A DNA stretch of 64,000 nucleotides from Anaerolineae bacterium (GCA_020849765.1 JADLAY010000017.1:44906-108905); one strand, 5' to 3'. Positions 3,544 to 41,700 are shown, counted from the first letter of the stretch. The notes: generated from the sequence alone by a model not told the origin. Numbers and translations are program-made.

Positions 3544-5156
3544 GGTCGCACCTCGTAGAGCGTGAAGTTGCCGTAGCGCCCGATTTCGTCCAGGCCGCGC
3601 GTCTCACGCAGCCAGCGGACGGCGATCTCCGGGCTGAGGCCGCGCCATTGATTCTCGATCTGCCAGCGGTTGATCAGCAGATAATCGGTCGCCCCATCGC
3701 GCGCGCCGGCCAGCGTCTCCGGCGTCTGATCGTAGAGTTCGCGCGGCTCGAAGCGGGTGTAGCGGCGGAGGGGCAGCGCCAGCCCCAGGGCATAAACGCG
3801 CGCGTCGGGCGGGAGCTGCGTCTCCAACCAGGCGATCACCTGCTTGTCTTCGCTCTGGCGGGCGATGAAGGCCCTCGTGTAATCGACGCCGGTCGCGATC
3901 ATCTGCCCCAGCCCGACCGTGCAGACGATCAGCGCCAGCGCGAGCGCAAACCTGCGAACGCGATGCTGAAGCGTGAGCAACGCCTCCAGGCCGAGCGCCG
4001 CCAGCAGTGCGACCGCCGGGACGACGATCAGTGGGAAGCGGATGTTCTGGTACGGTGTCCCGGCCAGGAAGGCGTATGGCAGCAGCAGCCAGCCGAGGGC
4101 GAGGAGAGTCAGTGGTAGGGGCGCCCTCACCCTAAATCCCTCTCCCTGATGGAGAGGGACTTTCACGAGATCTTTTCGCTCCCCTTCTCCCTGAGGGAGA
4201 AGGGGCTGGGGGATGAGGGTCACAGGAGTCTGTCGTCTCTGCGACAGCGTCAACGCCCACTGCTTCCGCCATAGCAGCGCATAGACCCCAACGGCGACCA
4301 GCGGCGCGAGCCACGGCGACAGATAGATCGGCGCGTAGACCGGCTGCGCGTAGAAGGCGGCGTTGGTCGTCGCATACTCGAAATGTCCGTCGGCGTTGTC
4401 GAACGTGCTGCGCAGAGCATTGGCGGGCGACCAGCCGATCACCCACGGATGATCGAGCGCCGGGTAGGGATTGTTCAGGCTGTAGGCCGTCTGCGCGAGG
4501 ACGATCGGCAGCGCGCACAGAGCGGCGATCCCCAGGTGACGGAGCCTGGCGCGCATCGCGATCAGGGCCGCGATCCAGACCGGGACGAGGCCGAGGTAGA
4601 TCCAGCGCGTGACGACGGCGCAGACGAGCGCGACCGCCGCCAGGGCCAGCAAACCCCCACGCCCCGTGCGACCATAGTGCATGAGACCGAGCGCACTCAA
4701 ACTTGCCCAGAACAGCGCCGGAATATCCGACATGAGGACGACGCTCGACTGGATCGCCTGGCCGCCGACGGCGACGATCAGCCCGGCCAGCGCCGCGCTC
4801 CACGGGCGGCAGCCGCACTCGCGCGCCAGCAGGTAGACGATGGCACTGAGCGCGACGCCGATCAGCAGGCCGACCGCCTGCGCCGCGGCGATGCTCCCGC
4901 CGCTGACGGCGAAGACGAGCCCCAGCAGCGCCGGGTAGCCAAGCGGCCAGTAGAACGGCGGGATCGCCTCGCCATGCGCGAGCGCCGCCGACAGCCGCTC
5001 GGCGAAGTCGGCATAGGCGTAGGCGTCCTGGCCGTAAAGACCGTCGAAGCCCGCCCCGGCGAGCACGTGCAGGCGCAGCGCCAGCGCGACGAGGCAGACG
5101 AAAGCGAGGAGGAGTGAGTCGAGTGAAGGGCGAAGGCGGGGAGTCATACCACTCAC
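3540..5156 (-). CDS. Polytopic membrane glycosyltransferase, GT39/ArnT/PMT_2-like (GT-C)
   Basis: 538 aa with more than 10 hydrophobic helices. N-terminal DAYAYADFAERL-type loop typical of ArnT/PMT-like enzymes. Contains an in-frame repeat insertion (see 4124-4220). Confidence 0.7.
   Translation of the reverse strand: MSGMTPRLRPSLDSLLLAFVCLVALALRLHVLAGAGFDGLYGQDAYAYADFAERLSAALAHGEAIPPFYWPLGYPALLGLVFAVSGGSIAAAQAVGLLIGVALSAIVYLLARECGCRPWSAALAGLIVAVGGQAIQSSVVLMSDIPALFWASLSALGLMHYGRTGRGGLLALAAVALVCAVVTRWIYLGLVPVWIAALIAMRARLRHLGIAALCALPIVLAQTAYSLNNPYPALDHPWVIGWSPANALRSTFDNADGHFEYATTNAAFYAQPVYAPIYLSPWLAPLVAVGVYALLWRKQWALTLSQRRQTPVTLIPQPLLPQGEGERKDLVKVPLHQGEGFRVRAPLPLTLLALGWLLLPYAFLAGTPYQNIRFPLIVVPAVALLAALGLEALLTLQHRVRRFALALALIVCTVGLGQMIATGVDYTRAFIARQSEDKQVIAWLETQLPPDARVYALGLALPLRRYTRFEPRELYDQTPETLAGARDGATDYLLINRWQIENQWRGLSPEIAVRWLRETRGLDEIGRYGNFTLYEVRP
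4124..4220. repeat. Hairpin-pair repeat element (family B), copy 1, inserted in-frame in the GT39 gene
   Basis: Layout: CCCTCACCCTAAA, then TCCCTCTCCCTGATGGAGAGGGA, then a spacer, then CCCCTTCTCCCTGAGGGAGAAGGGG, then GGGGATGAGGGT. Same architecture in inverted orientation at 41581-41700, and a shorter form at 52014-52081. Confidence 0.75.
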
Positions 5157-6859: not shown

Positions 6860-8085
6860 TCGCCGCCCAAACCGATCATGAGCGCGATGAAAGCCAGCGC
6901 CTCGACCAGCGCCAACGCTTGAGCTGCGCCCACCGCCCCTGCCCGCTCGATCAGCCAGGCGCTGGCGGCGAACTGGACGACGACCGCCGCGCCATTGACC
7001 AGATTGACCCGCGCTTCGCGCCCGCGCGCATAGCCATCAAGCGTACGCCCGCCGCGCAGCAGTCCGAAGGCGAGCGCCAGGCCGAGCCATTGCAGCGCCG
7101 GAACGGCGGGCGTGAAGTCCGCGCCGAAGACGAGCTCGATCAGCAGCGGGGCGAACAGTGCTAGCGCCGCGCCCGCCAGCACGCCATAGCCGAGCAAGCC
7201 GAGCAGCGCCCGGCGGAAGGTCGCCCGCAGGCGTTGAGGATCGGCGGCCAGGGCGCTCAAGGCCGGGAACAACGCGCCGAAGAAGGCGTTCGGCAGCAGG
7301 CGTGCGGCCTCACTGAAACGGTTCGCCGCCGCGAAATAACCCGCCGCATCCGCCCCGGCCAGGCTTTCGAGCAGGATGAAGCTCAGGCGCATCTGTGCGG
7401 CGAAGAAGACCGCCGCCAACCCGAAATGGCCGCTCGCGCGCAGCAGCGGCAGCACAGCCATCCGCCTCCCGCTCGGCGGCGCGTAATGGCGCGCGCGGTA
7501 GATCCACCAGGCTGCACCCAACTGCCCGGCTGAGGTCAGCGTGTTGATCAGGAAGACGAGCAGCAGGCGCGCGCTCATATCGGCGGATGGTTCCGTCAAT
7601 AGAGCCAGCGCCGTCAACGGCAGTTGCACGACCAGCATGCCGATATTCAGCCACGGGATCGGGCGCATGTCGCCGCGCGCGCGAAAGACCGCCGTGTAGG
7701 TGCTGAACAGCGGTTGGATCAGCACCAGCGGCGCGCTGATCTGCAAGCCGATGGCGGTCAGCGGGTCGGTGCTCAGGCTCGGCGCGGCGACGATCAAGAG
7801 CAGCGTCATGCCGCCGCCCATGATCTGGCGGGCGCGCACCGCCGCTCGCACGAGATCACCGCGGCGCGCCTCGTCCTGCGCGATCTCACGCGTCAGCAGT
7901 GTGCCCAGCCCGAACTCGACCCCCAGCGCCAGCGGCATGACCCAGGCCAGCGCCACGCCGTAGATGCCCAGCCCCTCTGCGCCGAGCGCCCGTCCGATCA
8001 GCGCGGCGAGCAGGAACGACAGCCCGGCCGTGCCGACATTGCTGACGGCGAGCGTGATCGTGTGGGTGGAGAGTCGTCCGCGCAT
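6835..8085 (-). CDS. Polysaccharide/oligosaccharide flippase (Wzx/MOP superfamily)
   Basis: 416 aa, about 12 TM. The N-terminus (..ITLAVSNVGTAGLSFLLAALIGRALGAEGLGIYGVA..) is typical of Polysacc_synt proteins. Confidence 0.7.
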   Translation of the reverse strand: MRGRLSTHTITLAVSNVGTAGLSFLLAALIGRALGAEGLGIYGVALAWVMPLALGVEFGLGTLLTREIAQDEARRGDLVRAAVRARQIMGGGMTLLLIVAAPSLSTDPLTAIGLQISAPLVLIQPLFSTYTAVFRARGDMRPIPWLNIGMLVVQLPLTALALLTEPSADMSARLLLVFLINTLTSAGQLGAAWWIYRARHYAPPSGRRMAVLPLLRASGHFGLAAVFFAAQMRLSFILLESLAGADAAGYFAAANRFSEAARLLPNAFFGALFPALSALAADPQRLRATFRRALLGLLGYGVLAGAALALFAPLLIELVFGADFTPAVPALQWLGLALAFGLLRGGRTLDGYARGREARVNLVNGAAVVVQFAASAWLIERAGAVGAAQALALVEALAFIALMIGLGGDQPRGRTG

Positions 8086-18329: not shown

Positions 18330-19367
18330 ATGGCATACGGCAATCGTATGAACTTCTACGGCCACACAAGCCTGATGGAAGGGTCGGTGAATATGAGTTT
18401 GGAGACATCTCACGTGCAGTTGGCGCAAGCGATGGCACATCTCGAAAAAGATGAAACAGCCGAAGCGTTGCGCTTGCTGAATGACCTGATTGAAAAGGTC
18501 GACCTCCTCGACGCGCATCGTTTGCGCTTCACCATCTTGATAAAACGAATCGACAATCCCCATGATCTACGCGCATCACTGGACGTGTTGCGAACGGAAG
18601 CCCCTGATATATACAGCGCCGGGTTGGTGGAACTCGAGACTCAAATTCACAATCGTTTGAGCGAATTGCAGGACGGGATTACCGAAGCCACGCAGCGTGC
18701 CGAGATGCAGTCGTACCTCGACGAATACGACGCACTTGTGGTGTTGAGCGACCTGTTCCCCGTCATTCAGGTTGCCCGTGGGCTGGGCTATATGGCCGCC
18801 GCTCGCATCAGGGACAAAAAGGGGCAACCGGGCACCGAATCCCCCTACGAACATCTGCGGAGATTGCTCGCTAAAGACATGGCGGTCCCTTTCATGCGCG
18901 AACGTAATGAAACGGACAGCGTCGACGATACACAGGCCGAAAGGTGGCGCATGACCGCAGAACAGGCACTGTCTGCGGCGCTGATTTCCTTAACGCCGAA
19001 TCATCCATCCGTTGTCGAGATCCATGAAGTCTTAGGGATGCTCTACGAGGGCATGCATGAATACAGCAAGGCACTGCGGTCCTTTCAGGCCGCAATAGAG
19101 CACGGCAGCAGCAACATGGAGGACAAGGTACACGAACTCACAACGAAGATCAAACAGGAAACAGAGCGTCTGGCACTGGAGCGAGTCGATTCACTCCTGG
19201 CGAACCAACACCTGGACGAAGCCGAAACCTGCCTGGCGGAGTATGCGCCAGATGCGTTGACCGATGCCTGGCACTTACGTTATGCGGAACTCGCATTGCT
19301 ACGTGGTGACCGCGAAACAGCAATGCATCACTACGCCCTCATCCTGCCCCTTGTCCACAACAAATGA
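18330..19367 (+). CDS. All-helical, TPR-like repeat protein, function unknown
   Basis: 345 aa with natural composition in a lower-GC patch. Start uncertain (ATGs at 18330, 18348, 18375, 18390). The stop is 15 nt before the next gene's ATG (AAGGAG RBS), so an operon. Confidence 0.6.
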   Translation: MAYGNRMNFYGHTSLMEGSVNMSLETSHVQLAQAMAHLEKDETAEALRLLNDLIEKVDLLDAHRLRFTILIKRIDNPHDLRASLDVLRTEAPDIYSAGLVELETQIHNRLSELQDGITEATQRAEMQSYLDEYDALVVLSDLFPVIQVARGLGYMAAARIRDKKGQPGTESPYEHLRRLLAKDMAVPFMRERNETDSVDDTQAERWRMTAEQALSAALISLTPNHPSVVEIHEVLGMLYEGMHEYSKALRSFQAAIEHGSSNMEDKVHELTTKIKQETERLALERVDSLLANQHLDEAETCLAEYAPDALTDAWHLRYAELALLRGDRETAMHHYALILPLVHNK

Positions 19368-19382
19368 GCAAGGAGATACCTG

Positions 19383-22124
19383 ATGGACTGGAATGATCCT
19401 TTCGTTGTGAGTAAAGCCTACGCGAAACTCCGCTCCATCGATCCGCCTGTCAATGCCGGATCAGATGCGGCTGTCCTTCCTCACGTGGCATTCAACGTGC
19501 CCGCCGATGACGTCAGGCGCCGAGCGCTTGCGGGTGTGCTTCATCTTCATCGCCAGGGTCGCCAGCAGTTTGATTTTCTGCCGCACCTGGAGACAGCCCT
19601 CCTATATGGCGACTTCGATGAGGAGACCAAACGCACGCTGCGCGCTGAAATCCGGGCGATTGAACGCGAGCGCCAGCAAGCTGCTTTTGCGACGATTCGC
19701 AGACTCAAGCGGAAGAAACTGCATGTCCAACCGAAACGCCGTTCGACAACCCGCCAACCCGCATCGTTTGTGATGCAGGTGACCGACGATAGCTGCATCG
19801 TCCGCTTTGGCTACCGGCTCACTAACGTGCGCGCAGTGCGCTTTGACATGCCCGTCGAGGCGGAAGGCGCGGCGTTACTCAGAACGCTGACTCAGGCTGT
19901 TGAAATCTGGAAAGACCGCCTCAGCCTGGGCCTTGAAGCTGACTTTACCTGGCGCTATTCCAGCGAGGCTCACCGTGTGAATCTGGAGTTGCTGGTTGAG
20001 CTTCATTTGCCGGAACCTGAAATGGCGGAGGAAGTCGTTCGTGGCCTACAAACCATCATTGAAAACCAACAGCCATTTCCCGAAGTCTATCATTTTGCGC
20101 GAATCGTCGAAAGGAAGCATCTTAAGAATTTCTACGGCAGCACATCGTTTGCCAGCGTCGCGGAGATCGTGCGCCATGAAGGTGTGATGGAGTATGAAGG
20201 GAAGAACCTCTATGTGATCTTTCCGGTGAAGGTGGATAGCGACCGCTTACACGATCTCATGGTCTACCTGCGTAGCGCAACGGATGGCAACGTCATCGAC
20301 ATCAAGATACGCCCCTCTGCGGTGACGCGCTCAGAGATCGATGCCGCTCTCGAGGCTATCACCATTGGCGTGAGTTATTATGACGAGGACAGCGAAGAGA
20401 TTCGGCTGAAAATGTCGGAAGGCGCGATCTTTGACCATCAATGGCTGAAAGCGCTGGATGCTTACCGGATGATGCTTTCCCAGATCCACAGCCAGGCTTA
20501 CGAAGTGCGCCTGCGTGTTGCCAGCAAAACGGATATCGACATCTTGCCGCTCGCCACGTTGGCCGGGCGTTCGCTCCTTGGCCTGGGAGCCTTCGACGTG
20601 ATTCCGGCGGCCTATGGTGCTCGGTCAATCGCCCTTGACGATCTGTCACCTCGCACCCGCGCCCCGGCAGAACTATCTCGGTTGCGCCGCATGTGGTCGC
20701 TTGTCGAAACAGCTTTTGTCACCCGCCTGCCACGACCATCTGCGGCGGGCATACCGGGAATCCCAATGACCCAGGTTAAGCCCCACCGGATACCCTCCGG
20801 GCTGCCTGAAGAGGGCTGTGTACTTGGACAGGTCACATCACAGGGAGAAACCACACCCACCCTGGTAAAACTACCTTACGTCGACCGCACACGACATGTC
20901 TATGTCGTCGGCCGAACCGGCACCGGCAAAACGACCATGCTGCATAACATGGCGCTGCAAGACATCGAAAATGGGCATGGTGTTGGGGTGATCGACCCCC
21001 ATGGCGACTTGATCGATGCGTTGTTGGAGCGCATACCGCACCATAGAGCCGGGGATGTTGTCCTGTTTGACCCTGGGGATATCTCGCGCCCGGTGGGTTT
21101 GAATTTGCTCGACGTGGAGGGCCCCATTGCGCAGAATTTGGCTGTCGCCGATTTTATTGGCTTGATGTACAGCATGTACGATCCGGGCCACACCGGGATC
21201 GTCGGCCCTCGATTCGAGCAAAGCGTGCGCAACAGCATGTACACCGCGATGGCAATACCCGGTGCGACCATCATCGACGTGCTGCGCATTATTAGCGATA
21301 ACCGGTACAGTCACGACGTCCAGAAGTATCTCACCGATCCGATTGTCAAAGACTATTGGGAGAAGATATACGACAGCCAGAGTGACTTTCATCGCAGCGA
21401 AGTCAAAGACTACATCACCAGCAAGTTCAGCCGCTTCACATCCGATCGTATGGTGCGGCAGATTATCGGCCAATCCAAGACCAGTCTCAATTTCGCCGAC
21501 ATTTTCAACAACAAGAAGATTCTGCTCGTCAATCTGGCGAAAGGGCGTATCGGCGAGTTCAACAGCCAGTTCCTGGGCTTCATTCTCGTATCGCAATTGT
21601 TGATTGCCGCATTCCAACGTGTGAACCAGGCTGTTGATCTGCGTATCCCATACTATCTGTACATTGATGAGTTTCAGAACTTCGCCACACCCGGCCTGGG
21701 GGCCATGCTTTCGGAGGGGCGAAAATATGGACTGGCGCTCACGCTGGCGCATCAATTCATCCATCAGCTGGATGTCAAAATCCGTGAAGCGGTTTTCGGT
21801 AACGTAGGCACTATCTGCGCTTTCCAGGTTGGGTTGCAGGATGCAGAGTATCTGGCTCGCGAGATGTACCCCGTCTTTGGCACTGACGATCTGGTCAATT
21901 TGCCAGCATATCATGCCGCGTCCAAGATTTTGGCGCACAAACAGACCCTGATGCCGTTTGTGATGCAGACGCTGCCCGAACAGAATCAGCCGCGAAAGGA
22001 AGTTGCTGACGCCATCCGGACTTTCAGTGGCCTGACATATGGGAGTAACGCGGCTGTCGTCGAAGACAACATTCGCGCTCAATTCGCGCTGCCCCTACAG
22101 AAACGTATGGAGCTGCTGACCTGA
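19383..22124 (+). CDS. Large P-loop ATPase of the HerA/FtsK/VirD4-TraD type with an unrecognised ~480-aa N-terminal region
   Basis: Walker A VVGRTGTGKTT (about nt 20905-20940), then VGVIDPHGDL. Walker B-like YYLYIDEFQNF. EGRKYGLALTLAHQ (TraG-D_C/HerA-like). No TM segments. Confidence 0.75.
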   Translation: MDWNDPFVVSKAYAKLRSIDPPVNAGSDAAVLPHVAFNVPADDVRRRALAGVLHLHRQGRQQFDFLPHLETALLYGDFDEETKRTLRAEIRAIERERQQAAFATIRRLKRKKLHVQPKRRSTTRQPASFVMQVTDDSCIVRFGYRLTNVRAVRFDMPVEAEGAALLRTLTQAVEIWKDRLSLGLEADFTWRYSSEAHRVNLELLVELHLPEPEMAEEVVRGLQTIIENQQPFPEVYHFARIVERKHLKNFYGSTSFASVAEIVRHEGVMEYEGKNLYVIFPVKVDSDRLHDLMVYLRSATDGNVIDIKIRPSAVTRSEIDAALEAITIGVSYYDEDSEEIRLKMSEGAIFDHQWLKALDAYRMMLSQIHSQAYEVRLRVASKTDIDILPLATLAGRSLLGLGAFDVIPAAYGARSIALDDLSPRTRAPAELSRLRRMWSLVETAFVTRLPRPSAAGIPGIPMTQVKPHRIPSGLPEEGCVLGQVTSQGETTPTLVKLPYVDRTRHVYVVGRTGTGKTTMLHNMALQDIENGHGVGVIDPHGDLIDALLERIPHHRAGDVVLFDPGDISRPVGLNLLDVEGPIAQNLAVADFIGLMYSMYDPGHTGIVGPRFEQSVRNSMYTAMAIPGATIIDVLRIISDNRYSHDVQKYLTDPIVKDYWEKIYDSQSDFHRSEVKDYITSKFSRFTSDRMVRQIIGQSKTSLNFADIFNNKKILLVNLAKGRIGEFNSQFLGFILVSQLLIAAFQRVNQAVDLRIPYYLYIDEFQNFATPGLGAMLSEGRKYGLALTLAHQFIHQLDVKIREAVFGNVGTICAFQVGLQDAEYLAREMYPVFGTDDLVNLPAYHAASKILAHKQTLMPFVMQTLPEQNQPRKEVADAIRTFSGLTYGSNAAVVEDNIRAQFALPLQKRMELLT

Positions 22125-25999: not shown

Positions 26000-26494
26000 T
26001 TACGACTCGTTTACAGGCGTGCGCCTGATACGGCGGATGATGTAACGCAGGGTGCCATCCGGCACTTTGACTTCGATCACGTCGCCCTTCTGGCAGCCGA
26101 GCAGGATCTTGCCGACCGGCGATTCGACTGAGACGCCGTCGCCCAGGTAGGCGACTTCCTCGTGGCTGCGCAGGACGAAGGTATCCGTTTCGCTGGTGTC
26201 GATGTCTTCGATGGTGACTTCGTCGCCCATGTCGACGCGATGCGGATCGGGATCTTCCTCAATGATCTCCGCCCGGTCGAGCACCGAACGCAAATAATTG
26301 ATGCGCTCGTCCAGATATTCTTTCTGCACGCGCGATTCGTAATCCGTGCCCTCGTCGTCCGGCTGCAGACCGCCCTCGCGGCGGATGTCGATCAGCTGTT
26401 CGGTCACCTGACGCTGGCGCTCGAGTAAAGCGTCGAGCTCGCGCTTGAGATTGTCATAACCCTGGCGTGTGAGTGTGAAGTTTTCAGCAGCCAT
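26000..26494 (-). CDS. greA: Transcription elongation factor GreA
   Basis: 164 aa from ATG 26492-26494. MAAENFTLTRQGYDNLKRELDAL.. coiled-coil N-terminus and a C-terminal ..SVESPVGKILLGCQKGDVIEVKVP.. motif. Confidence 0.9.
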   Translation of the reverse strand: MAAENFTLTRQGYDNLKRELDALLERQRQVTEQLIDIRREGGLQPDDEGTDYESRVQKEYLDERINYLRSVLDRAEIIEEDPDPHRVDMGDEVTIEDIDTSETDTFVLRSHEEVAYLGDGVSVESPVGKILLGCQKGDVIEVKVPDGTLRYIIRRIRRTPVNES

Positions 26495-26701
26495 TGCACG
26501 CCTCCAATTGTGCGTGTGGTGATTATCCTGAATTGTAGGGCCTTTTGCCCGGACATAGGACAGGGTTCGCGGGTGATGTTCGGCATGTTTACCGGTTGGT
26601 GAGTGAATGGCGACATCTATGGTAATCGCCCCTGTTTCTGTGTAGGATGGAGACTGACACGCGACTCTGGCGTAATGGAGTAGTAAAGCAAGGATAAGCA
26701 G

Positions 26702-27802
26702 ATGCATCGACTTTTTCTGATAGGGGCGGCGCTCGCGGCGGTTTTATTGATCGGCGTGCAGGTGACCGTCGCACAAGACCCGACGGCGACGACTGAGATG
26801 GCCGAGACGGTGGAGAGCCCCATCCCGGAGAACATTCGCCAGTCATTGCTGGCGGGTGGCGTCAATTTGCAGTTTGGCTTTTATGATACGGACAATTACG
26901 AGCCGGAGTCGTTTGACGAGGAACTGCCGTTGATCGCCGAGGCGGGCGCGCGCCACGTGCGGCTGCCGATCAGCATGGACATTCTCGAACGCGATCAAAC
27001 CGGGCGCCTGCGCAGCGACCGCTTCGCCGACGTCAAGCGCTTCGTCGAGCTGGCGCAGTCATACGGCCTGCTCACGATCATCGACGTGCACAACACCGGC
27101 CTGCGCGAATGCGACGGCTGCCCATGGACAGAAAATTACATGTGGGGCGTGGACGTGCCGAGTGTGCGCGAGCGCCACACCAGCCTGATGGTGGCGCTGG
27201 TCACAGAGTTGTATCGCAGTGGTCTGGATCGCGATTGGTTCGTCGTTCAGCCCGCCAACGAGCCGATCTTCTCCAGCAATCCAGGCGACTGGTACGCATA
27301 TCAGGCGGAACTGCTCGGCGAAATGCGCCAGGAGTGCCCGGACTGTGTGTTCTTCGCCATGGCCCACGACTGGCAGAGCATCCAGGCGACCGTCGACAAC
27401 CTCAATCCCCCGCTTGACGATCCGCTGCTCATCTACGACGTGCATTTCTACGAGCCGCTGGCGCTGACTCACTGCGCATTTCCGGGCCAGGAGAACACCT
27501 GCCTCGGATTGGAATACCCCGGCACGTTTACTTCGTGGCGCGGCGAGGAATACTGGGACAAGGCCAAGATCGAAGAGACCTTCCAGCCGCTCGTCAACTG
27601 GCGCGATCAGTATGGCGTGATGGTGCACTTCAGCGAGGTCGGCACTGCTGACCTGCTGGCCGAAGATGTGCGCGCCCATTACCTCGGCGACGTGGTGTCG
27701 ACCCTGCGTGAAGACGGCTTCGGCTACTCGATCTTCGAGTGGCACCGCAACTTCGGCGTCAAGGGCTTCCCGGACGTGCTGGCGGCGGTCTTCCCTAACT
27801 AG
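26702..27802 (+). CDS. Secreted glycoside hydrolase family 5 (cellulase-like)
   Basis: Signal peptide MHRLFLIGAALAAVLLIGVQVTVAQ. RHVRLPI, IIDVHN and QPANEP (catalytic acid/base NEP) motifs. Confidence 0.75.
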   Translation: MHRLFLIGAALAAVLLIGVQVTVAQDPTATTEMAETVESPIPENIRQSLLAGGVNLQFGFYDTDNYEPESFDEELPLIAEAGARHVRLPISMDILERDQTGRLRSDRFADVKRFVELAQSYGLLTIIDVHNTGLRECDGCPWTENYMWGVDVPSVRERHTSLMVALVTELYRSGLDRDWFVVQPANEPIFSSNPGDWYAYQAELLGEMRQECPDCVFFAMAHDWQSIQATVDNLNPPLDDPLLIYDVHFYEPLALTHCAFPGQENTCLGLEYPGTFTSWRGEEYWDKAKIEETFQPLVNWRDQYGVMVHFSEVGTADLLAEDVRAHYLGDVVSTLREDGFGYSIFEWHRNFGVKGFPDVLAAVFPN

Positions 27803-36380: not shown

Positions 36381-37010
36381 ATGGGCGACTATCCCCCAGG
36401 GTTCTACCTCCAGGCGGCCATTGAGACGCCCTGGAAAGTCCACAACAGCCTGATCCGCCACCTTGTCATCCCGGTGGCGCGCCTCAAGTTTGCGCTGGCC
36501 GGTATCCCCTGGCGGCGCGGATGGATGCTCTACGGCGTGCCGATCCTGCTCAAGCACCGCCAGAGCACGATCGCCATCGGCGACCGGCTCAGTCTGCGCT
36601 CGACGCTGCGCAGCAATCCACTCGGCCCCAATCACCCCGTCATCCTGTGCACCTGGCGCGAGGGCGCGCGCCTCATCATCGGCGACGACTTCGGCATGAC
36701 CGGCGGCTGCATCGTCGCCGAGCAGGAGATCGTCATCGGCAACCGCGTGACCATCGGCGCCAACTGCACGATCATGGACACCGACTTCCACCCGCTCGAT
36801 CCACAAACGCGTCACGCACGCCCGTACGACGCGGCCACCGCCCCCGTGCGCATCGAGGACGACGTGTTCGTCGGCATGAACAGCCTGATCCTCAAGGGCG
36901 TCACCCTCGGCGCAGGCAGCGTGATCGGCGCGGGCAGCGTCGTCACGTCCGACATCCCGCCCGGCGTGATCGCCGCGGGGGTGCCTGCGAAGGTGATCAG
37001 GGGGTTGTGA
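36381..37010 (+). CDS. Hexapeptide-repeat (left-handed beta-helix) acyl/acetyltransferase
   Basis: Repeated [LIV]-G-x4 units: IGNRVTIGANCTI, VFVGMNSLILKGVTLGAGSVIGAGSVV. Confidence 0.8.
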   Translation: MGDYPPGFYLQAAIETPWKVHNSLIRHLVIPVARLKFALAGIPWRRGWMLYGVPILLKHRQSTIAIGDRLSLRSTLRSNPLGPNHPVILCTWREGARLIIGDDFGMTGGCIVAEQEIVIGNRVTIGANCTIMDTDFHPLDPQTRHARPYDAATAPVRIEDDVFVGMNSLILKGVTLGAGSVIGAGSVVTSDIPPGVIAAGVPAKVIRGL

Positions 37011-37119
37011 GCGAACGTATCTGCGTTCATCTGACCACGTGTTGTCGAATATTTGCATCGTCGACTTACGAAATAGATAATAAACGTGGTGTACTTATTA
37101 GGAGTTCTTTCAAACCACA

Positions 37120-38775
37120 ATGCCTAGTGCATTCATCTCTTATCGCCGCGTCGAAAGCGCTGCCCTTGCCACGCTGATCGCCGTCACCTTGCAAGACAAG
37201 CATGGCATTGAAGTTTTCGTCGATACCCGCAGTACCGACGGTGGTGGCCTGTTTCCTGACCGCTTGCGCCGCGCCATTGAACATTGCGACGTATTCGTTT
37301 GCCTGCTTGGCGCGACGACGCTGGAATCCGCCTGGGTGATGGAAGAGATCGAACATGCGCATAACTTGCGCAAGACGATGATCCCGGTCTTCCAGGAACG
37401 TTACGTTCCGCCCAACCCAATTCCCAGCGTACACGTCGAAGCACTGCTGCAATCGGATGGATTGCAGGTTCTTGATGTGCGCAACGTGTACGTCGATCAA
37501 GCTATCTCCGACTTGGCGTCAATGATCAGAAGATCCGTCGGTGCTCCAATGCCGCCGCCCAGGCGAGGCATCGGGTTACCTCTGATTGCCGCAGTCTTGG
37601 TGTTGCTCGCGTTAGTCGCCCTTGGCATCTTCCTGGTGTCTCGCGCCATGGAATCCCCCACTTCAACAGCCAGTCCGACACAGATCGCGGGTGGTGTGAC
37701 CGCCAGCACCACCATCGAGCAACCCACCGCTGCACCGACAGAAGATGCGGCTGGCACACGGGTCGCCCAATTGCAGGCCAGCCTGACCGCCTTGGCGCAA
37801 CTTCAAATCGTAGGGGAAGAAACCGCGACGGCGGACGCCGCAACGCGTGGTGCTGCTGCACAAATCGATGCGACTTTGCGGGCAGCCGCGGACACCGCGA
37901 CCGCGGCTGCCCTCGCTATCACGCAATCCGTATTGGGTGAAACGGCGACTCAGCAAGCCATTGACGCGACCGCGATAGCTAGTGTATCGACAGATACTCC
38001 CACCCCATCCGCGACACCTACGCCTATCACACTGGAATATGCTTACGCCCAGGCAGTAAATTATGATGATGGTCAGGGAAATACGGCATGGACGCCTATT
38101 GCATATACGTTTGGGGATGGCGTGACGATGGTTCTAGTACCGACGGGCTGCTTTTTGATGGGTAGCAGCGAAGGTAATATTAACGAACAGCCCATCAATG
38201 AGCAGTGCTTTGTCGTGCCATTCTGGATCGACCAGACTGAAGTGACACAGGCCGATTTTGTACGTCTGAGTGGACAAAAGGCGGCCCCGAATGAATTTCC
38301 TGCTGACCAACACCCCGTTGAGAATATCACTTGGTTCGAAGCACGTAATTTCTGCGTGTTGCGGGGTGCGCGCTTGCCAACAGAGCGCGAATGGGAATAT
38401 GCAGCCCGCGGCCCTGAAGGATGGATCTACCCATGGGGAAACATGTGGGACACGAGCTATGCTGCATGGAACCGGAGTAGATCGCAAAGAACCGCCATCG
38501 TGGGAACAGCATCAAATGGGGTTTCCTGGGTCGGTGCACAGGATATGAGCGGCAACGTCTGGGAGTGGGCGAGCTCCCTTTACCAGCCGTACCCCTATGC
38601 GGCAGACGATGGACGAGAGGGGGATATGAGAGACCTTGCGGATGCTCAACGTGTGTTGAGAGGCGGTTCTTGGTACTACGTCAGTACTATTGGCCTACGC
38701 GCGCCTACGCGCAGCGGACTCGACCCAATAGCCAAAGACAATCTATTAGGTTTCCGTTGCGCCCGCGATGTCTGA
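37120..38775 (+). CDS. TIR domain - TM - Ala/Thr-rich linker - FGE-sulfatase (SUMF1-like) domain fusion protein
   Basis: TIR_2-like FISYRRVES..CDVFVCLLG..SAWVMEEIEHA. TM IGLPLIAAVLVLLALVALGIFLV. C-terminal WIDQTEVTQADF, ENITWFEARNFC, RLPTEREWEYAARG, RVLRGGSW, GFRCA. Confidence 0.8.
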   Translation: MPSAFISYRRVESAALATLIAVTLQDKHGIEVFVDTRSTDGGGLFPDRLRRAIEHCDVFVCLLGATTLESAWVMEEIEHAHNLRKTMIPVFQERYVPPNPIPSVHVEALLQSDGLQVLDVRNVYVDQAISDLASMIRRSVGAPMPPPRRGIGLPLIAAVLVLLALVALGIFLVSRAMESPTSTASPTQIAGGVTASTTIEQPTAAPTEDAAGTRVAQLQASLTALAQLQIVGEETATADAATRGAAAQIDATLRAAADTATAAALAITQSVLGETATQQAIDATAIASVSTDTPTPSATPTPITLEYAYAQAVNYDDGQGNTAWTPIAYTFGDGVTMVLVPTGCFLMGSSEGNINEQPINEQCFVVPFWIDQTEVTQADFVRLSGQKAAPNEFPADQHPVENITWFEARNFCVLRGARLPTEREWEYAARGPEGWIYPWGNMWDTSYAAWNRSRSQRTAIVGTASNGVSWVGAQDMSGNVWEWASSLYQPYPYAADDGREGDMRDLADAQRVLRGGSWYYVSTIGLRAPTRSGLDPIAKDNLLGFRCARDV

Positions 38776-39313
38776 TTGCGACCACACTTACCCCCAGCGC
38801 AAATCGCCTCGTCTCCGCGACTATGATTACGCACAATCCGGTGCATATTTCGTCACCATCTGTACCTATCGACGTGAGCATCTCTTTGGCGAGGTCGTCG
38901 ATCAACAGATGCATCTGTCGCGGATGGGATCGATTGCTCATGACCTGTGGTACACCATCCCCGATCATCATTCGCAGGTCGAACTCGATGCGTTCGTCGT
39001 CATGCCCAACCATGTCCACGGCATCATCGTTGTAGGGACGCCGCGTGCGGCGTCCGGCGGCGAGAATGATGGGCGATCGGCGGACAGGGCACGCCCTGTC
39101 CCTACGGAATCGCTCGGAGCGATCATCGGTGCGTACAAGTCCGCCGTGACACGCACCGTCAATCAGGCGATGAGGTTGGTCGCGCCGACGGTCTGGCAGA
39201 CGCGCTATGACCATCACATCATTCGCAGCGAGCACGATCTAGACCGCATCCGCGCCTACGTCGCCGACAACTCCGCGCGATGGCTGGATGACACGCTGTT
39301 CACAAAAGGATAG
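38768..39313 (+). CDS. REP-associated tyrosine transposase (RAYT, IS200/Y1 HUH family)
   Basis: YDYAQSGAYFVTICT, HUH motif MPNHVHGIIV, VWQTRYDHHIIRSEHDL..YVADNSARW. The ATG overlaps the upstream stop (ATGTCTGA). Carries its own REP doublet in-frame. Confidence 0.8.
   Translation: MSDCDHTYPQRKSPRLRDYDYAQSGAYFVTICTYRREHLFGEVVDQQMHLSRMGSIAHDLWYTIPDHHSQVELDAFVVMPNHVHGIIVVGTPRAASGGENDGRSADRARPVPTESLGAIIGAYKSAVTRTVNQAMRLVAPTVWQTRYDHHIIRSEHDLDRIRAYVADNSARWLDDTLFTKG
39032..39105. repeat. REP doublet (REPIN-like) inside the RAYT CDS
   Basis: GTAGGGACGCCGCGTGCGGCGTCC (39032-39055) and GGACAGGGCACGCCCTGTCCCTAC (39082-39105) in inverted orientation. Translated as ..GTPRAASGGENDGRSADRARPVPTE.. Confidence 0.7.
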
Positions 39314-40732: not shown

Positions 40733-40846
40733 GGTTTGTATCGCTCGCTTCTCGTGTGCGGAATTATACCTCCGGCGAGCGCATCCGTTGCACTCCCTGG
40801 TGTACAGTCGAGCAGATTTTCTTCCGCCCCCGAATGAAAGCCGTCG

Positions 40847-41458
40847 CTAGCGGAATCCATTCCACATCAGGTTCAGGTAGGCGGGCAGAATGTCCTTGAC
40901 GACCTGCTGCGCGGCCTGCTCGGCGGAGATCGGCAGGCCCTTCTCCAGCCACCACGAGGCAATCCCGATGAAGCCGGTGCTGTAGAACTGGAGCGTCATC
41001 TCCAGCGGATAGCCGATGTCGAGCTGCGGATGATCCCGCGTGATCGGCTCGAAGATCAGCTCGTTCAGCAGCGCCTGAAACAACTCGCGAAACAGTGGAT
41101 CGCCATGCTTGCCGAGCAGGGTTCGGTAGAAAGCCTCATGCCGCTCCAGGTGGTGCAAGACGTTCGCCACGACCGGCTCCAATGACGCCGGGTCCTGCTG
41201 CTTATCCCAAACTTTGTAGATTTCTGTGCGCACTTCGCCGAACAGGGTTTTCGCGCAATCTTCCAGCAGTTCGTGCAAGCCGCTGTAATGCAGGTAGAAC
41301 GTCGTTCGATGCAACCCGGCTTGCTGAGTCACGTCCTGGATCGTCAGGCTGGAGAAGCCCCTGTCCGCGATCAGCGCCATCAGCGCATTGCGCAGTAAGG
41401 CGCGGGTGCGAACGATTCGGGGGTCCTGGGTCGCGTCGTTCATCGATACCTTGTCCAT
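40847..41458 (-). CDS. TetR/AcrR-family transcriptional regulator
   Basis: RIVRTRALLRNALMALIADRGFSSLTIQDVTQQAGLHRTTFYLHY (TetR HTH). Start at MDKVS or MNDAT (41443). Divergent from the MMPL gene. Confidence 0.85.
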   Translation of the reverse strand: MDKVSMNDATQDPRIVRTRALLRNALMALIADRGFSSLTIQDVTQQAGLHRTTFYLHYSGLHELLEDCAKTLFGEVRTEIYKVWDKQQDPASLEPVVANVLHHLERHEAFYRTLLGKHGDPLFRELFQALLNELIFEPITRDHPQLDIGYPLEMTLQFYSTGFIGIASWWLEKGLPISAEQAAQQVVKDILPAYLNLMWNGFR

Positions 41459-41580: not shown

Positions 41581-41700
41581 ACCCTCAACCCCGTCCCCTT
41601 CTCCCTGATGGAGAAGGGGAGAAAAATCGGTTCTGAAAGTCCCTCTCCCTGACGACCAAAGGGAGCACCGAAGGTTGGGAGAGGGATTTAAGGTGAGGGC
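41581..41700. repeat. Hairpin-pair repeat element (family B), copy 2, intergenic, inverted relative to copy 1
   Basis: CCCTTCTCCCTGATGGAGAAGGGG .. TCCCTCTCCC-N..-GGGAGAGGGATTTAAGGTGAGGG. Its reverse complement aligns along copy 1. Confidence 0.75.

What the first reader, a model, noticed from the sequence alone, without database searches (positions are those of the whole stretch)
37120..39313. TIR - TM - FGE-sulfatase fusion protein overlapping a RAYT transposase gene
The 551-aa protein combines three parts. The first is a cytoplasmic TIR_2-like domain (FISYRRVES.., CDVFVCLLG, SAWVMEEIEHA). The second is a single TM (IGLPLIAAVLVLLALVALGIFLV) with a long Ala/Thr-rich linker. The third is a complete FGE-sulfatase/SUMF1-type domain (RLPTEREWEYAARG, RVLRGGSW, GFRCA), predicted to be outside the cell. 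This topology suggests an external ligand-sensing module wired to a TIR effector. FGE-sulfatase domains fused to conflict-system effectors have been noted in comparative-genomics work on multicellular bacteria, so the domain pairing may not be new. The membrane-spanning arrangement and its immediate 8-nt overlap (ATGTCTGA) with a RAYT gene are notable. The patch (37.0-39.3 kb) also looks less GC-rich than its neighbours.
Basis: partly seen in the sequence, partly recalled or inferred. Interest (0 to 1): 0.55.

Follow-up and report, generated by a model that had tools for sequence, protein, structure and literature searches.

The report
Transmembrane TIR protein with FGE-like ectodomain
This gene encodes a membrane-spanning protein with a probable NAD-cleaving TIR domain inside the cell and a non-enzymatic lectin-fold binding domain outside; it belongs to a large, uncharacterised receptor-like family in Chloroflexota, and its overlap with the transposase-like gene is an accident of a recent insertion.

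Summary
ORF 37120-38775 (551 aa; NCBI MCC6613108.1, Anaerolineae MAG) has three parts: an N-terminal TIR_2 domain, one strongly hydrophobic helix (aa 150-173), and a C-terminal FGE-sulfatase-fold domain. Its stop overlaps the start of a RAYT-like gene by 8 nt.

- The FGE domain lacks the catalytic cysteine pair, so it is a binding module, not an enzyme. The TIR keeps the glutamate that aligns with SARM1 E642, invariant in the 57 aligned family members.
- The architecture is common. 66 of the 120 best homologues are TIR-TM-FGE, and every source-named hit and genome locus is Chloroflexota. The same TIR-TM head is also fused to SH3b, PD40 and other binding ectodomains. TIR and FGE divergence are uncorrelated, which indicates module shuffling.
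- The RAYT link is incidental. A syntenic relative (81-90% nucleotide identity) has the acetyltransferase followed directly by RAYT, with no TIR gene. None of 13 homologous TIR loci encodes a RAYT. The TIR gene has GC3 0.58 against about 0.85 for its neighbours, so it looks recently inserted.

Most likely function: an outside-in sensor in which ligand-driven clustering activates a cytoplasmic TIR NADase. No paper describing this membrane version was found. Verdict: an uncharacterised variant of known TIR/FGS conflict proteins, of moderate interest.

The parts
37011..38789 (+). Segment present in the window but absent from the syntenic relative L014. It holds the intergenic leader, the whole TIR-TM-FGE gene and the first ~7 codons of the present RAYT reading frame.
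   Evidence: blastn of window against L014: homology stops at 37002 and resumes at 38790, while only 47 nt separate the matching points in L014. GC3 is 0.58 against 0.88-0.90 in flanking genes. ACTTAC occurs at 37064-37069 and 38786-38791; this may be a chance repeat.
37052..37081 (+). Promoter-like site TTTGCA-18-GATAAT upstream of the TIR gene, inside the inserted segment. Weak evidence only.
   Evidence: Consensus scan: 1 site found against 1.1 expected in shuffles, so it is not significant on its own.
37120..38775 (+). TIR-TM-FGE gene, 551 aa (NCBI MCC6613108.1).
   Evidence: The N-terminus MPSAFISYRR matches the starts of family members.
37132..37482 (+). TIR domain (aa 5-121), predicted cytoplasmic.
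   Evidence: Pfam TIR_2 1.2e-15. Best solved relative is the SARM1 TIR domain, E=5e-8. AF2 pLDDT mostly above 90.
37345..37347 (+). Codon of Glu76, which aligns with the catalytic Glu642 of SARM1.
   Evidence: Alignment WVMEEI / WVHKEI. E76 is invariant in 27 of 27 and 57 of 57 family members and nearly invariant (at least 90%) in 148 clade representatives.
37567..37638 (+). Single transmembrane helix (aa 150-173), oriented N-in/C-out.
   Evidence: Kyte-Doolittle 3.26. AF2 helix at 153-174. Positive-inside rule across the family.
37639..38124 (+). Ala/Thr/Pro-rich extracytoplasmic stalk (aa 174-335). It includes two long predicted helices (aa 210-235 and 240-286) of moderate confidence.
   Evidence: Linker length in the family ranges from 24 to 201 aa, with composition T 22%, A 16%, P 12%.
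38125..38766 (+). FGE-sulfatase / C-type-lectin-fold domain (aa 336-549), predicted extracytoplasmic and non-catalytic.
   Evidence: Pfam 8.8e-42. Foldseek to CalU17, FGE, pFGE and TvpA, E=1e-13 to 1e-15. AF2 pLDDT above 90.
38662..38712 (+). Loop GGSWYYVSTIGLRAPTR, which replaces the Cu-binding Cys-x4-Cys loop of true FGEs. It is one of the most variable stretches in the family.
   Evidence: Alignment to S. coelicolor FGE: GGSYLCHDSYCNRYR against GGSWYYVSTI--GLR. Column conservation is 0.34-0.37.
38768..38775 (+). 8-nt overlap ATGTCTGA between the stop of the TIR gene and the start of the RAYT gene.
   Evidence: The ATG is supplied by DNA that is absent from L014.
38768..39313 (+). Resident RAYT-like (IS200/Y1-type HUH) gene, 181 aa (MCC6613109.1). 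It is not part of the TIR system.
   Evidence: Its 81%-identical (82.5% in a global alignment) orthologue sits in the syntenic position in L014. dN/dS is 0.23 and dS 0.38, like the neighbours. H82-x-H84 and Y164 are invariant in 120 of 120 homologues.

Best explanation
The gene encodes a type II (N-in, C-out) single-pass membrane protein. Its N-terminal TIR domain faces the cytoplasm and keeps the residues expected of an NAD+-cleaving TIR. Its C-terminal FGE/C-type-lectin-fold domain sits outside the membrane on a Thr/Ala/Pro-rich stalk. That domain has lost the catalytic cysteines, so it acts as a ligand-binding module.

The protein belongs to a large Chloroflexota family built on one plan: a TIR head, one TM helix, a variable stalk and an exchangeable binding ectodomain. 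The ectodomain is most often FGE-like, but can be SH3b, PD40 or LysM+FGE.

Proposed mechanism (inferred, not shown): binding of an external ligand clusters the ectodomains. The ligand could be a surface or glycan feature of a phage, competitor or damaged envelope. Clustering brings the cytoplasmic TIR domains together, which switches on NAD+ hydrolysis or cyclisation. The cell then arrests or dies, or a nucleotide signal is released.

In this genome the gene is a recent, self-contained acquisition. It was inserted between an acetyltransferase gene and a resident domesticated RAYT gene. The 8-nt overlap is the insertion junction and is not a functional coupling to transposition.
For: Shown:
- Domains and boundaries.
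- One TM helix, with the positive-inside rule holding in the query and in 53 of 57 relatives.
- E76 aligns with SARM1 E642. FISYRR, the FxD motif and W72 also align. E76 is invariant in 57 family members and nearly invariant (at least 90%) in 148 clade representatives.
- The FGE Cys pair is absent. The best sequence match is the non-catalytic pFGE/SUMF2.
- Near-invariant Cys pairs C344/C363 and C412/C547 sit in the ectodomain.
- 66 of 120 top homologues are TIR-1TM-FGE.
- Of the 150 best 50%-identity cluster representatives found with the TIR head, 68 have a TM helix directly after an N-terminal TIR. 30 of the 94 N-terminal-TIR representatives carry FGE (24 of them with the TM helix). The others carry SH3_3 (15 of 44 scanned), PD40 or beta-propellers.
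- TIR and FGE identities are uncorrelated (r=0.04).
- Paralogue arrays occur in other genomes.
- The same FGE clade is also fused behind a TM helix to Ser/Thr kinases (P0013 and P0103).
- Insertion: synteny with L014, which lacks the gene. GC3 is 0.58 against about 0.85. Homologues elsewhere match their host GC.

From the literature: FGS/CLec domains are proposed invader sensors coupled to TIR and other effectors (PMC7159879, PMC8195603, PMC10907252, PMC13581612).
Against: - There is no biochemical evidence. NADase competence is inferred from one aligned Glu and a few motifs.
- The ligand is unknown.
- The neighbourhoods of relatives are mostly housekeeping genes, not defence islands, and this locus is not one either, so an immune role is not supported by context.
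- PADLOC gives only weak generic ThsB-like TIR hits.
- Topology was inferred from hydropathy and charge, not from a dedicated predictor.
- One relative (L010) has TIR-FGE without a detectable TM helix.
- Insertion rather than deletion in the relative is inferred from composition, not proven.
Confidence: 0.55

Rival explanations
1. Thoeris-like signalling. The membrane TIR does not deplete NAD+. On activation it makes a cyclic-ADPR-type signal that switches on a separate effector encoded elsewhere in the genome.
For: Weak similarity to ThsB profiles (PADLOC PDLC00434 5e-11; Pfam ThsB_TIR 3.7e-4; NCBIfam ThcB4 50.9 bits). Other TIR genes exist in the same window (55645-56148).
Against: No ThsA-type partner (SIR2, Macro or SLOG) is adjacent here or in 13 related loci, and neighbourhoods are not conserved. 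NCBIfam ThcB4 scores far below its cut-off of 220. The closest solved TIR is SARM1, an NAD+ consumer.
Confidence: 0.15
2. Housekeeping envelope sensor or anchor. The ectodomain binds the cell's own wall, sheath or exopolysaccharide, and the TIR serves as a protein-interaction or regulatory module in filament development, not in conflict.
For: The alternative ectodomains are classic wall-binding modules (SH3b, LysM, PD40). Gene contexts are housekeeping. The same FGE clade is fused to Ser/Thr kinases, like ordinary receptor kinases.
Against: The catalytic Glu and surrounding motifs are strictly conserved, which argues for an enzyme rather than a scaffold. Patchy presence or absence between close relatives, foreign codon usage, module shuffling and paralogue arrays are hallmarks of conflict or accessory genes.
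Confidence: 0.15
3. The FGE-like domain is an extracellular enzyme (an Fe- or Cu-dependent oxidase, as the NCBI name 'SUMF1/EgtB/PvdO family nonheme iron enzyme' implies), and the TIR regulates or anchors it.
For: The database name. The fold is shared with FGE, EgtB, OvsA and CalU17.
Against: The FGE Cu-binding Cys pair is missing. To my knowledge, the metal site of EgtB, SenA and OvoA lies in an N-terminal DinB-like domain; the NCBIfam matches cover only the C-terminal FGE-like part of those profiles, at 88 bits against a cut-off of 360. The best sequence match is the non-catalytic pFGE. The region around the former active site is among the least conserved in the family.
Confidence: 0.06
4. 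The TIR-TM-FGE gene and the RAYT gene form a functional or mobile unit, an operon in which the transposase moves or regulates the receptor gene.
For: The 8-nt overlap, and the absence of a terminator-like site or promoter-like site between the genes, mean RAYT must now be read through from upstream. The insertion lies exactly at the RAYT start. ACTTAC occurs at both junctions.
Against: RAYT is present without the TIR gene at the same syntenic spot in L014. It evolves like its neighbours, with dN/dS 0.23 and dS 0.38. There is no RAYT homologue in 13 TIR-homologue loci. DNA homology between TIR genes starts at the ORF, with no shared ends. A 6-mer repeat is weak evidence.
Confidence: 0.04
5. The ectodomain is a diversity-generating-retroelement (DGR) target, hypermutated like TvpA/Mtd-type FGS domains.
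For: The fold resembles TvpA, with the highest target-normalised TM-score among the listed hits, 0.68. Literature links FGS sensors with DGRs. The C-terminal loop is variable.
Against: No template repeat of the 3' part of the gene exists anywhere in the 64-kb window. No reverse-transcriptase gene was noticed among the ORFs that were scanned.
Confidence: 0.05

Closest known systems
SARM1-type and bacterial NAD+-cleaving TIR domains (SARM1, AbTir, ThsB, TIR-SAVED, TIR-STING)
   Same: TIR fold. FISYRR, the FxD motif and W-x3-E align with the SARM1 TIR, including the catalytic Glu. By analogy, activation would be expected to require oligomerisation.
   Different: Here the TIR is the N-terminal cytoplasmic head of a single-pass membrane protein. 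It has no SAM/ARM, SAVED, STING or ThsA partner. Enzymatic activity is untested.
FGS (FGE-sulfatase/C-type-lectin fold) sensor domains of STAND, vWA-MoxR ternary and DGR-linked conflict systems (Kaur et al. 2020 PMC7159879; Kaur et al. 2021 PMC8195603; Dore et al. 2024 PMC10907252; PMC13581612)
   Same: A non-catalytic FGS domain at the C-terminus, with effector domains (including TIR) always N-terminal to it. Preference for multicellular or filamentous bacteria. Paralogue diversification.
   Different: Those systems are described mainly as intracellular. They use an NTPase switch (STAND, MoxR-vWA) between sensor and effector, and are often DGR-diversified. Here there is no NTPase and no DGR in the window, a TM helix replaces the switch, and the sensor is outside.
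pFGE / SUMF2 (PDB 1y4j) and true FGEs (SUMF1; S. coelicolor and T. curvata FGE)
   Same: Same fold. Motifs RLPTEAEWEYAARG, GNVWEW, RGGS and GFRCA are shared. The Cys at the positions of C412 and C547 is retained.
   Different: Like pFGE and unlike FGE, the protein lacks the Cys-x4-Cys copper site. It is not a formylglycine-generating enzyme.
Animal Toll-like receptors
   Same: The logic is the same: ligand-binding ectodomain, one TM helix, cytoplasmic TIR. Signalling is presumed to occur by induced proximity of TIR domains.
   Different: Opposite polarity (type II, TIR at the N-terminus). The ectodomain is lectin-fold rather than LRR. The TIR is probably an enzyme rather than an adaptor scaffold. 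No homology outside the TIR fold, so this would be convergence.
Ser/Thr kinase-TM-FGE receptor kinases of Chloroflexota (P0013 and P0103)
   Same: The same FGE-like ectodomain clade (43-47% identity) behind a TM helix, with a cytoplasmic signalling enzyme at the N-terminus.
   Different: The output domain is a kinase instead of a TIR.
RAYT / TnpA-REP (REP-associated tyrosine transposases, IS200/IS605 Y1 HUH family), for the downstream gene
   Same: Y1_Tnp profile match. HUH (H82-V-H84) and Tyr164 are invariant. The gene is single-copy and vertically inherited. REP-like hairpins occur in the window.
   Different: Scores below the NCBIfam REP_Tyr_transpos cut-off (53 against 80). No REP elements flank the gene itself. 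No functional link to the TIR gene.

Membership tests
TIR domain superfamily (Pfam TIR_2, PF13676) | Profile match above the curated cut-off | tested here: met
   58.5 bits against a cut-off of 28, aa 5-121. PF01582 scores 27.2 against 21.3.
NAD+-cleaving (enzymatic) TIR domains | Catalytic glutamate in the W-x3-E helix (SARM1 E642 equivalent) | tested here: met
   E76 aligns with SARM1 E642. It is invariant in 57 of 57 family members and at least 90% conserved in 148 representatives.
NAD+-cleaving (enzymatic) TIR domains | Measured NADase or cyclase activity | not testable with these tools
   Needs a biochemical assay.
FGE-sulfatase fold (Pfam PF03781) | Profile match above the cut-off, and the fold itself | tested here: met
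   143.9 bits against 23.3, covering profile positions 4-255 of 255. Foldseek E=1e-13 to 1e-15 to FGE, pFGE, CalU17 and TvpA.
Formylglycine-generating enzyme (SUMF1-type, catalytic) | Copper-binding Cys-x4-Cys pair (human C336/C341) | tested here: not met
   S. coelicolor FGE GGSYLCHDSYCNRYR aligns with query GGSWYYVSTI--GLR. Both Cys are missing.
Formylglycine-generating enzyme (SUMF1-type, catalytic) | Structural Ca2+-binding residues | not tested
   No coordinates or reliable residue list were available. Only the surrounding GNVWEW motif is seen to be retained.
EgtB / SenA / OvoA sulfoxide synthases | Full-length equivalog score | tested here: not met
   NCBIfam egtB scores 88.2 bits against a cut-off of 360, SenA 81 against 420, ovoA_Nterm 20 against 400. 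Only the C-terminal FGE-like part of those profiles matches.
Thoeris ThsB | ThsB equivalog score plus an adjacent ThsA effector | tested here: not met
   ThcB4 scores 50.9 bits against a cut-off of 220. No ThsA-like neighbour lies here or in related loci.
STAND / vWA-MoxR FGS conflict systems (Kaur et al.) | NTPase switch (STAND, or MoxR plus vWA) in the same protein or operon | tested here: not met
   No NTPase domain in the protein. The neighbours are an acetyltransferase, the RAYT gene and serine dehydratase.
DGR variable proteins | Template repeat matching the 3' variable region, plus a reverse transcriptase | tested here: not met
   No repeat of 38301-38790 in the 64-kb window. The rest of the genome was not available.
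Toll-like receptors | LRR ectodomain, type I orientation, C-terminal TIR | tested here: not met
   FGE-fold ectodomain, TIR at the N-terminus, type II orientation. The resemblance is in logic only.
RAYT (REP-associated tyrosine transposase), downstream gene | HUH motif and catalytic Tyr; profile score; association with REP elements | tested here: inconclusive
   H82-x-H84 and Y164 are invariant and Pfam Y1_Tnp is above its cut-off. NCBIfam scores 53.2, below 80. REP-like hairpins lie 2.3 kb away but do not flank the gene.

The most novel reading that the evidence does not exclude
TIR-TM-ectodomain proteins of filamentous Chloroflexota are true cell-surface immune receptors, a bacterial and convergent counterpart of Toll-like receptors. 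They would detect a phage, predator or competitor molecule outside the cell, before any genome entry, and answer by TIR-driven NAD+ collapse of that cell in the filament. Specificity would be diversified by shuffling ectodomain modules and by tandem paralogue arrays rather than by DGRs.
Probability: 0.25. Interest if true: 0.8.

Novelty: new variant of a known kind. Interest (0 to 1): 0.5.

Why it matters
To my knowledge, nearly all bacterial immune sensors characterised so far act inside the cell. This is a widespread family that wires an external lectin-fold binding domain straight through the membrane to a TIR enzyme. If it senses outside-in, it would show that surface pattern recognition coupled to TIR signalling also exists in bacteria.

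The family also offers a simple one-protein system for studying how clustering activates TIR NADases. The exchangeable ectodomains (FGE-like, SH3b, PD40) and the uncorrelated divergence of head and ectodomain suggest a naturally modular receptor scaffold.

The specific locus additionally documents a clean gain of such a gene between two closely related genomes.

Tried and rejected
- DGR diversification: no template repeat of the gene's 3' end in the window.
- REP elements flanking the RAYT gene: none. The only REP-like hairpins are at 4.1 kb and 41.6 kb.
- Conserved TIR-RAYT operon: rejected. There is no RAYT homologue in 13 related loci, and the syntenic relative has RAYT without the TIR gene.
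- Shared mobile-element ends between TIR genes: DNA similarity starts at the ORF.
- Carriage on phages or plasmids: only the FGE domain matches, with no full-length hit.
- Paralogues of the same TIR, FGE or RAYT in the window by tblastn: none. A divergent second TIR was found later by Pfam.
- Membership in Thoeris, EgtB or FGE enzyme families: failed cut-offs or defining residues.
- 'TIR more conserved than FGE' as a sign of ectodomain diversifying selection: rejected. All-pair identities are similar (0.51 against 0.53) and uncorrelated, which points to module shuffling instead.
- Polarising insertion against deletion from RAYT N-termini: uninformative, because N-termini vary across the family.

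Dead ends:
- The contig of P0001 is not on record in the gene-position index.
- The first family alignment was too diverse for the genome scan.
- The metagenome scan with RAYT peptides found nothing.
- PMC7685563 is not held.
- RAYT has no solved relative by sequence.
- The afdb50 fold library is unavailable.
- Six literature searches found no paper on a TIR-TM-FGE architecture.
Full report
1. THE OBSERVATION

The window contains ORF 37120..38775 (+, 551 aa) and ORF 38768..39313 (+, 181 aa). The sequence ...GCGATGTCTGATTGC... places the downstream ATG at 38768-38770 and the upstream TGA at 38773-38775. That is an 8-nt overlap, as reported.

Pfam assigns TIR_2 to aa 5-121 (E=1.2e-15, 58.5 bits, cut-off 28). 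It assigns FGE-sulfatase to aa 336-549 (E=8.8e-42, covering profile positions 4-255 of 255).

A hydropathy scan finds a single hydrophobic segment at aa ~150-173, with a 19-residue Kyte-Doolittle mean of 3.26. Four Arg lie in the 15 residues before it and one after it. The following 160 residues are 24% Ala and 18% Thr.

The downstream protein matches Y1_Tnp (30.7 bits against 23). It also matches NCBIfam REP_Tyr_transpos, but below that family's cut-off (53 against 80).

Whole-base GC of 37120-39313 is 57.5% against 61.9% for the window, only the 11th percentile. Third-position GC is 0.58 for the TIR gene and 0.69 for RAYT. Most genes score 0.78-0.89, and the two flanking genes score 0.88-0.90.

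The exact proteins are already in NCBI. MCC6613108.1 is named 'SUMF1/EgtB/PvdO family nonheme iron enzyme' and MCC6613109.1 is named 'transposase'. Both come from an Anaerolineae MAG.

2. THE THREE PARTS

TIR domain. The closest solved relative is the SARM1 TIR domain (E=5e-8). The alignment covers FISYRR, the F-x-D strand and WVMEEI against WVHKEI. Query Glu76 therefore lies on the SARM1 Glu that I know as the catalytic E642 (the residue number is from memory). Glu76 is invariant in 27 and in 57 aligned family members. It is at least 90% conserved in 148 representatives of the wider clade. PADLOC and NCBIfam give only weak, sub-threshold ThsB-like matches.

FGE domain. The best sequence match is pFGE/SUMF2, the non-catalytic paralogue, followed by CalU17, EgtB and true FGEs. 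In the alignment to S. coelicolor FGE, the copper-binding loop GGSYLCHDSYCNRYR corresponds to GGSWYYVSTI--GLR, so both catalytic cysteines are absent. The EgtB, SenA and OvoA equivalog scores are far below cut-off and cover only the shared C-terminal fold. The domain is therefore a fold member but not an FGE or a sulfoxide synthase. The NCBI name 'nonheme iron enzyme' is generic.

Structure model. An AlphaFold2 model built on 57 homologues has mean pLDDT 83. It is mostly above 90 for the TIR (aa 1-140) and the FGE domain (aa 300-551). It shows a helix at 153-174, a disordered stretch at 177-208, and two long helices of moderate confidence at 210-235 and 240-286. Foldseek matches CalU17, FGEs, pFGE, EgtB and the DGR protein TvpA at E=1e-13 to 1e-15.

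3. TOPOLOGY

No dedicated predictor was available, so the topology is inferred.
- There is no N-terminal signal peptide. The TIR starts at residue 2-5.
- There is one strong TM helix.
- Across 57 family members, the 15 residues before the helix carry on average 3.61 Lys+Arg, against 0.46 after it. The N flank exceeds the C flank in 53 of 57 members.
- The stalk is rich in Thr, Ala and Pro and ranges from 24 to 201 aa in length.
- Two Cys pairs in the FGE domain are co-conserved: C344/C363 in 51 of 57 members each, and C412/C547 in 56 of 57 each. From memory, the latter pair corresponds to a structural disulfide of ER-luminal human FGE. This fits an oxidising, extracytoplasmic location.

All of this agrees with N-in/C-out: TIR in the cytoplasm, where NAD+ is, and the FGE domain outside.

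4. HOW COMMON IS THE ARCHITECTURE?

A search of 5.8 billion proteins gave 1381 hits at E<1e-5 among the 8000 candidates scored. Of the best 120, 67 contain both domains, and 66 of those have one hydrophobic helix between them. Some carry two or three FGE domains. All hits that carry an organism name from their source are Chloroflexota: Anaerolineae, Phototrophicaceae or 'Chloroflexi'.

A scan of one genome per GTDB species, using two conserved TIR peptides, returned 10 loci. All are Chloroflexota, Anaerolineae or Aggregatilineales MAGs.

An exhaustive HMMER search with the TIR-TM head (aa 1-175) against 1.84 billion 50%-identity representatives found 3395, 428 and 120 proteins at E<1e-3, E<1e-10 and E<1e-30. 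Of the best 150:
- 94 have the TIR at the N-terminus.
- 68 of those have a TM helix right behind it.
- 30 carry an FGE domain.
- 56 have the TIR at the C-terminus or inside long proteins.

Pfam scanning of 44 N-terminal-TIR, non-FGE representatives shows bacterial SH3 domains in 15. PD40 and other beta-propellers, kinases and TPRs occur in smaller numbers. One family member also has LysM (P0090).

The same FGE clade also occurs in three other settings. It appears as secreted multi-FGE proteins, behind a TM helix in Ser/Thr kinases (P0013, P0103), and behind short cytoplasmic tails.

Within 57 TIR-TM-FGE proteins, the pairwise identity of the TIR halves and of the FGE halves is uncorrelated (r=0.04). 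For example, P0005 has TIR 86% and FGE 52%, while P0065 has TIR 27% and FGE 63%. The two modules have therefore been recombined repeatedly.

Some genomes hold arrays. L005 has four adjacent type-II-membrane FGE genes, two of them with different TIR heads. L015 has two paralogues 0.5 kb apart.

In short, this is a large modular family with the plan TIR, TM helix, stalk and binding ectodomain.

5. THE RAYT OVERLAP

The nearest relative of the RAYT protein (P0122, 81% identity) lies on a JGI metagenome contig (L014). That contig is syntenic with the window at 81-90% nucleotide identity over about 12 kb. The shared gene order is: aldo-keto reductase, CxxCxxCC protein, response-regulator-like gene, 90-aa ORF, hexapeptide acetyltransferase, RAYT, L-serine ammonia-lyase, TetR, MMPL.

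In L014 the acetyltransferase stop is followed after 28 nt by the RAYT start. There is no TIR gene.

Homology to the window ends at 37002 and resumes at 38790. The segment of about 1.78 kb at 37011-38789 therefore replaces 38 nt of the relative.

The right junction lies inside the first codons of RAYT. L014 reads MAHHPQRKSPRL and the window reads MSDCDHTYPQRKSPRL. The window's RAYT start codon, and hence the overlap, is supplied by the extra DNA.

RAYT and its L014 orthologue differ by dN/dS 0.23 and dS 0.38. This is like the eight flanking genes, which show dN/dS 0.09-0.20 and dS 0.24-0.79. RAYT keeps the HUH histidines and Tyr164, which are invariant in 120 of 120 homologues. It is a resident, vertically inherited, selected gene.

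None of the 13 loci that encode TIR homologues contains a RAYT homologue. Their neighbourhoods are unrelated and mostly housekeeping.

DNA similarity between TIR genes begins at the start codon, with no shared ends. Homologues elsewhere have the GC content of their host loci. The window's copy is GC3-poor relative to its genome.

The most economical reading is a recent horizontal gain of a one-gene cassette from a lower-GC Chloroflexota relative, dropped into an existing co-directional gene string. Loss in the L014 lineage cannot be strictly excluded.

A promoter-like site (37052-37081) lies in the inserted leader but is not statistically distinguishable from chance. ACTTAC occurs at both junctions, which is too short to interpret.

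A consequence worth testing: RAYT now probably depends on read-through and translational coupling from the TIR gene.

6. MECHANISM

Shown:
- The anatomy.
- The retained TIR catalytic residue.
- The lost FGE catalytic residues.
- The family-wide topology signal.
- The modularity.

Inferred: the ectodomain binds an external ligand. Ligand-induced clustering, possibly helped by the helical stalk, brings the TIR domains together. TIR assembly then activates NAD+ cleavage, as established for SARM1 and bacterial TIR effectors (general knowledge). The result is NAD+ depletion, or a nucleotide signal, and arrest or death of the cell.

The nature of the ligand is open. The alternative ectodomains (SH3b, LysM, PD40) suggest cell-wall or glycan-type ligands. 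Published comparative genomics proposes FGS domains as direct invader sensors (PMC8195603, PMC7159879, PMC10907252, PMC13581612).

Against an immune role: the locus and those of relatives are not defence islands. The rivals are scored in the structured fields. They are a Thoeris-like signal generator, a self-envelope sensor or scaffold, an extracellular enzyme, a RAYT-linked unit and a DGR target.

7. COMPARISON WITH WHAT IS KNOWN, AND NOVELTY

Pairing of FGS domains with TIR and other effectors is documented. In the text I could read, it is described for intracellular proteins with STAND or MoxR-vWA switches, often with DGRs. Dore et al. note that a few DGR targets place CLec domains in the periplasm.

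I found no paper describing the direct TIR-TM-FGE, or more broadly TIR-TM-ectodomain, family. Six searches of the held library covered this. Its coverage is incomplete, and supplementary tables of the Aravind-lab papers were not searched.

The protein fails the defining tests for FGE enzymes, EgtB-type synthases, Thoeris ThsB, NTPase-based FGS systems, DGR targets (within the window) and TLRs. It passes those for the TIR and FGE folds.

I therefore file it as a new, uncharacterised variant of a known kind: a TIR-effector and FGS-sensor conflict or signalling protein. This particular gene is an ordinary member of a large Chloroflexota family.

8. VERDICT

The finding is real, and the receptor-like interpretation is reasonable but unproven. 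The architecture is common rather than singular.

Interest is moderate (0.5). The family would become important if outside-in TIR signalling were demonstrated.

Noticed in passing
window 54638-56148 (- strand): A second, divergent TIR gene lies at 55645-56148 (167 aa, Pfam TIR_2 9e-14, proline-rich tail). It is immediately followed by a 331-aa protein with several hydrophobic helices and no Pfam match (54638-55633). Both have very low GC3 (0.48-0.51) and sit next to gyrA. This looks like a separate two-gene TIR plus membrane-protein cassette, also compositionally foreign.
   Followed up: partly
window 4140-4205 and 41595-41695: Paired GC-rich hairpins occur at two loci: TCCCTCTCCCTGATGGAGAGGGA and CCCCTTCTCCCTGA(G/T)GGAGAAGGGG. 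The 25-mer is expected 0 times by chance. The 41.6-kb copy lies in the only part of the TetR-MMPL spacer that does not align with the syntenic relative L014. They are REP/REPIN-like and are possible substrates of the RAYT gene 2.3 kb away.
   Followed up: partly
window 18330-22124 (+): A low-GC3 (0.64-0.65) gene pair: a TPR protein (345 aa) and a 913-aa HerA/TrwB-like ATPase (Pfam TrwB_AAD_bind and DUF87; PADLOC mad8 3e-15). It may be another accessory or defence-type island.
   Followed up: no
L005 6154-12070 (Aggregatilineales MAG JBGAHG010000060): A tandem array of four type-II-membrane FGE-ectodomain genes. Two have different TIR heads and two have only short cytoplasmic tails. The stalks share QTATA..WTATPTP-like motifs.
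   Followed up: partly
L015 4281-11771: Two TIR-TM-FGE paralogues are separated by a YjbR gene. They lie next to a 1153-aa Pkinase-AAA_16-TPR (STAND-like) protein and a WD40 protein.
   Followed up: no
L009, L012, L013 (genes starting at 8001, 123 and 8001): The same conserved TIR-TM head (56-68% identity) carries non-FGE C-terminal regions: SH3b-like regions in L009 and L012, and a Cys-rich repeat in L013. L010 has TIR-FGE without a detectable TM helix.
   Followed up: partly
window 40754-40847 versus L014 10008-12037: The syntenic relative has two extra genes (an HTH_31/MLTR_LBD regulator and an NAD-dependent epimerase) between the serine ammonia-lyase and TetR genes. The window lacks them. 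This is a second indel between the two genomes.
   Followed up: no
window 26000-26707 (-): A GreA/GreB-like protein has a ~77-aa N-terminal extension and reduced GC3 (0.67). GreA/B C-terminal domains are mentioned as conflict-system components in PMC8195603.
   Followed up: no
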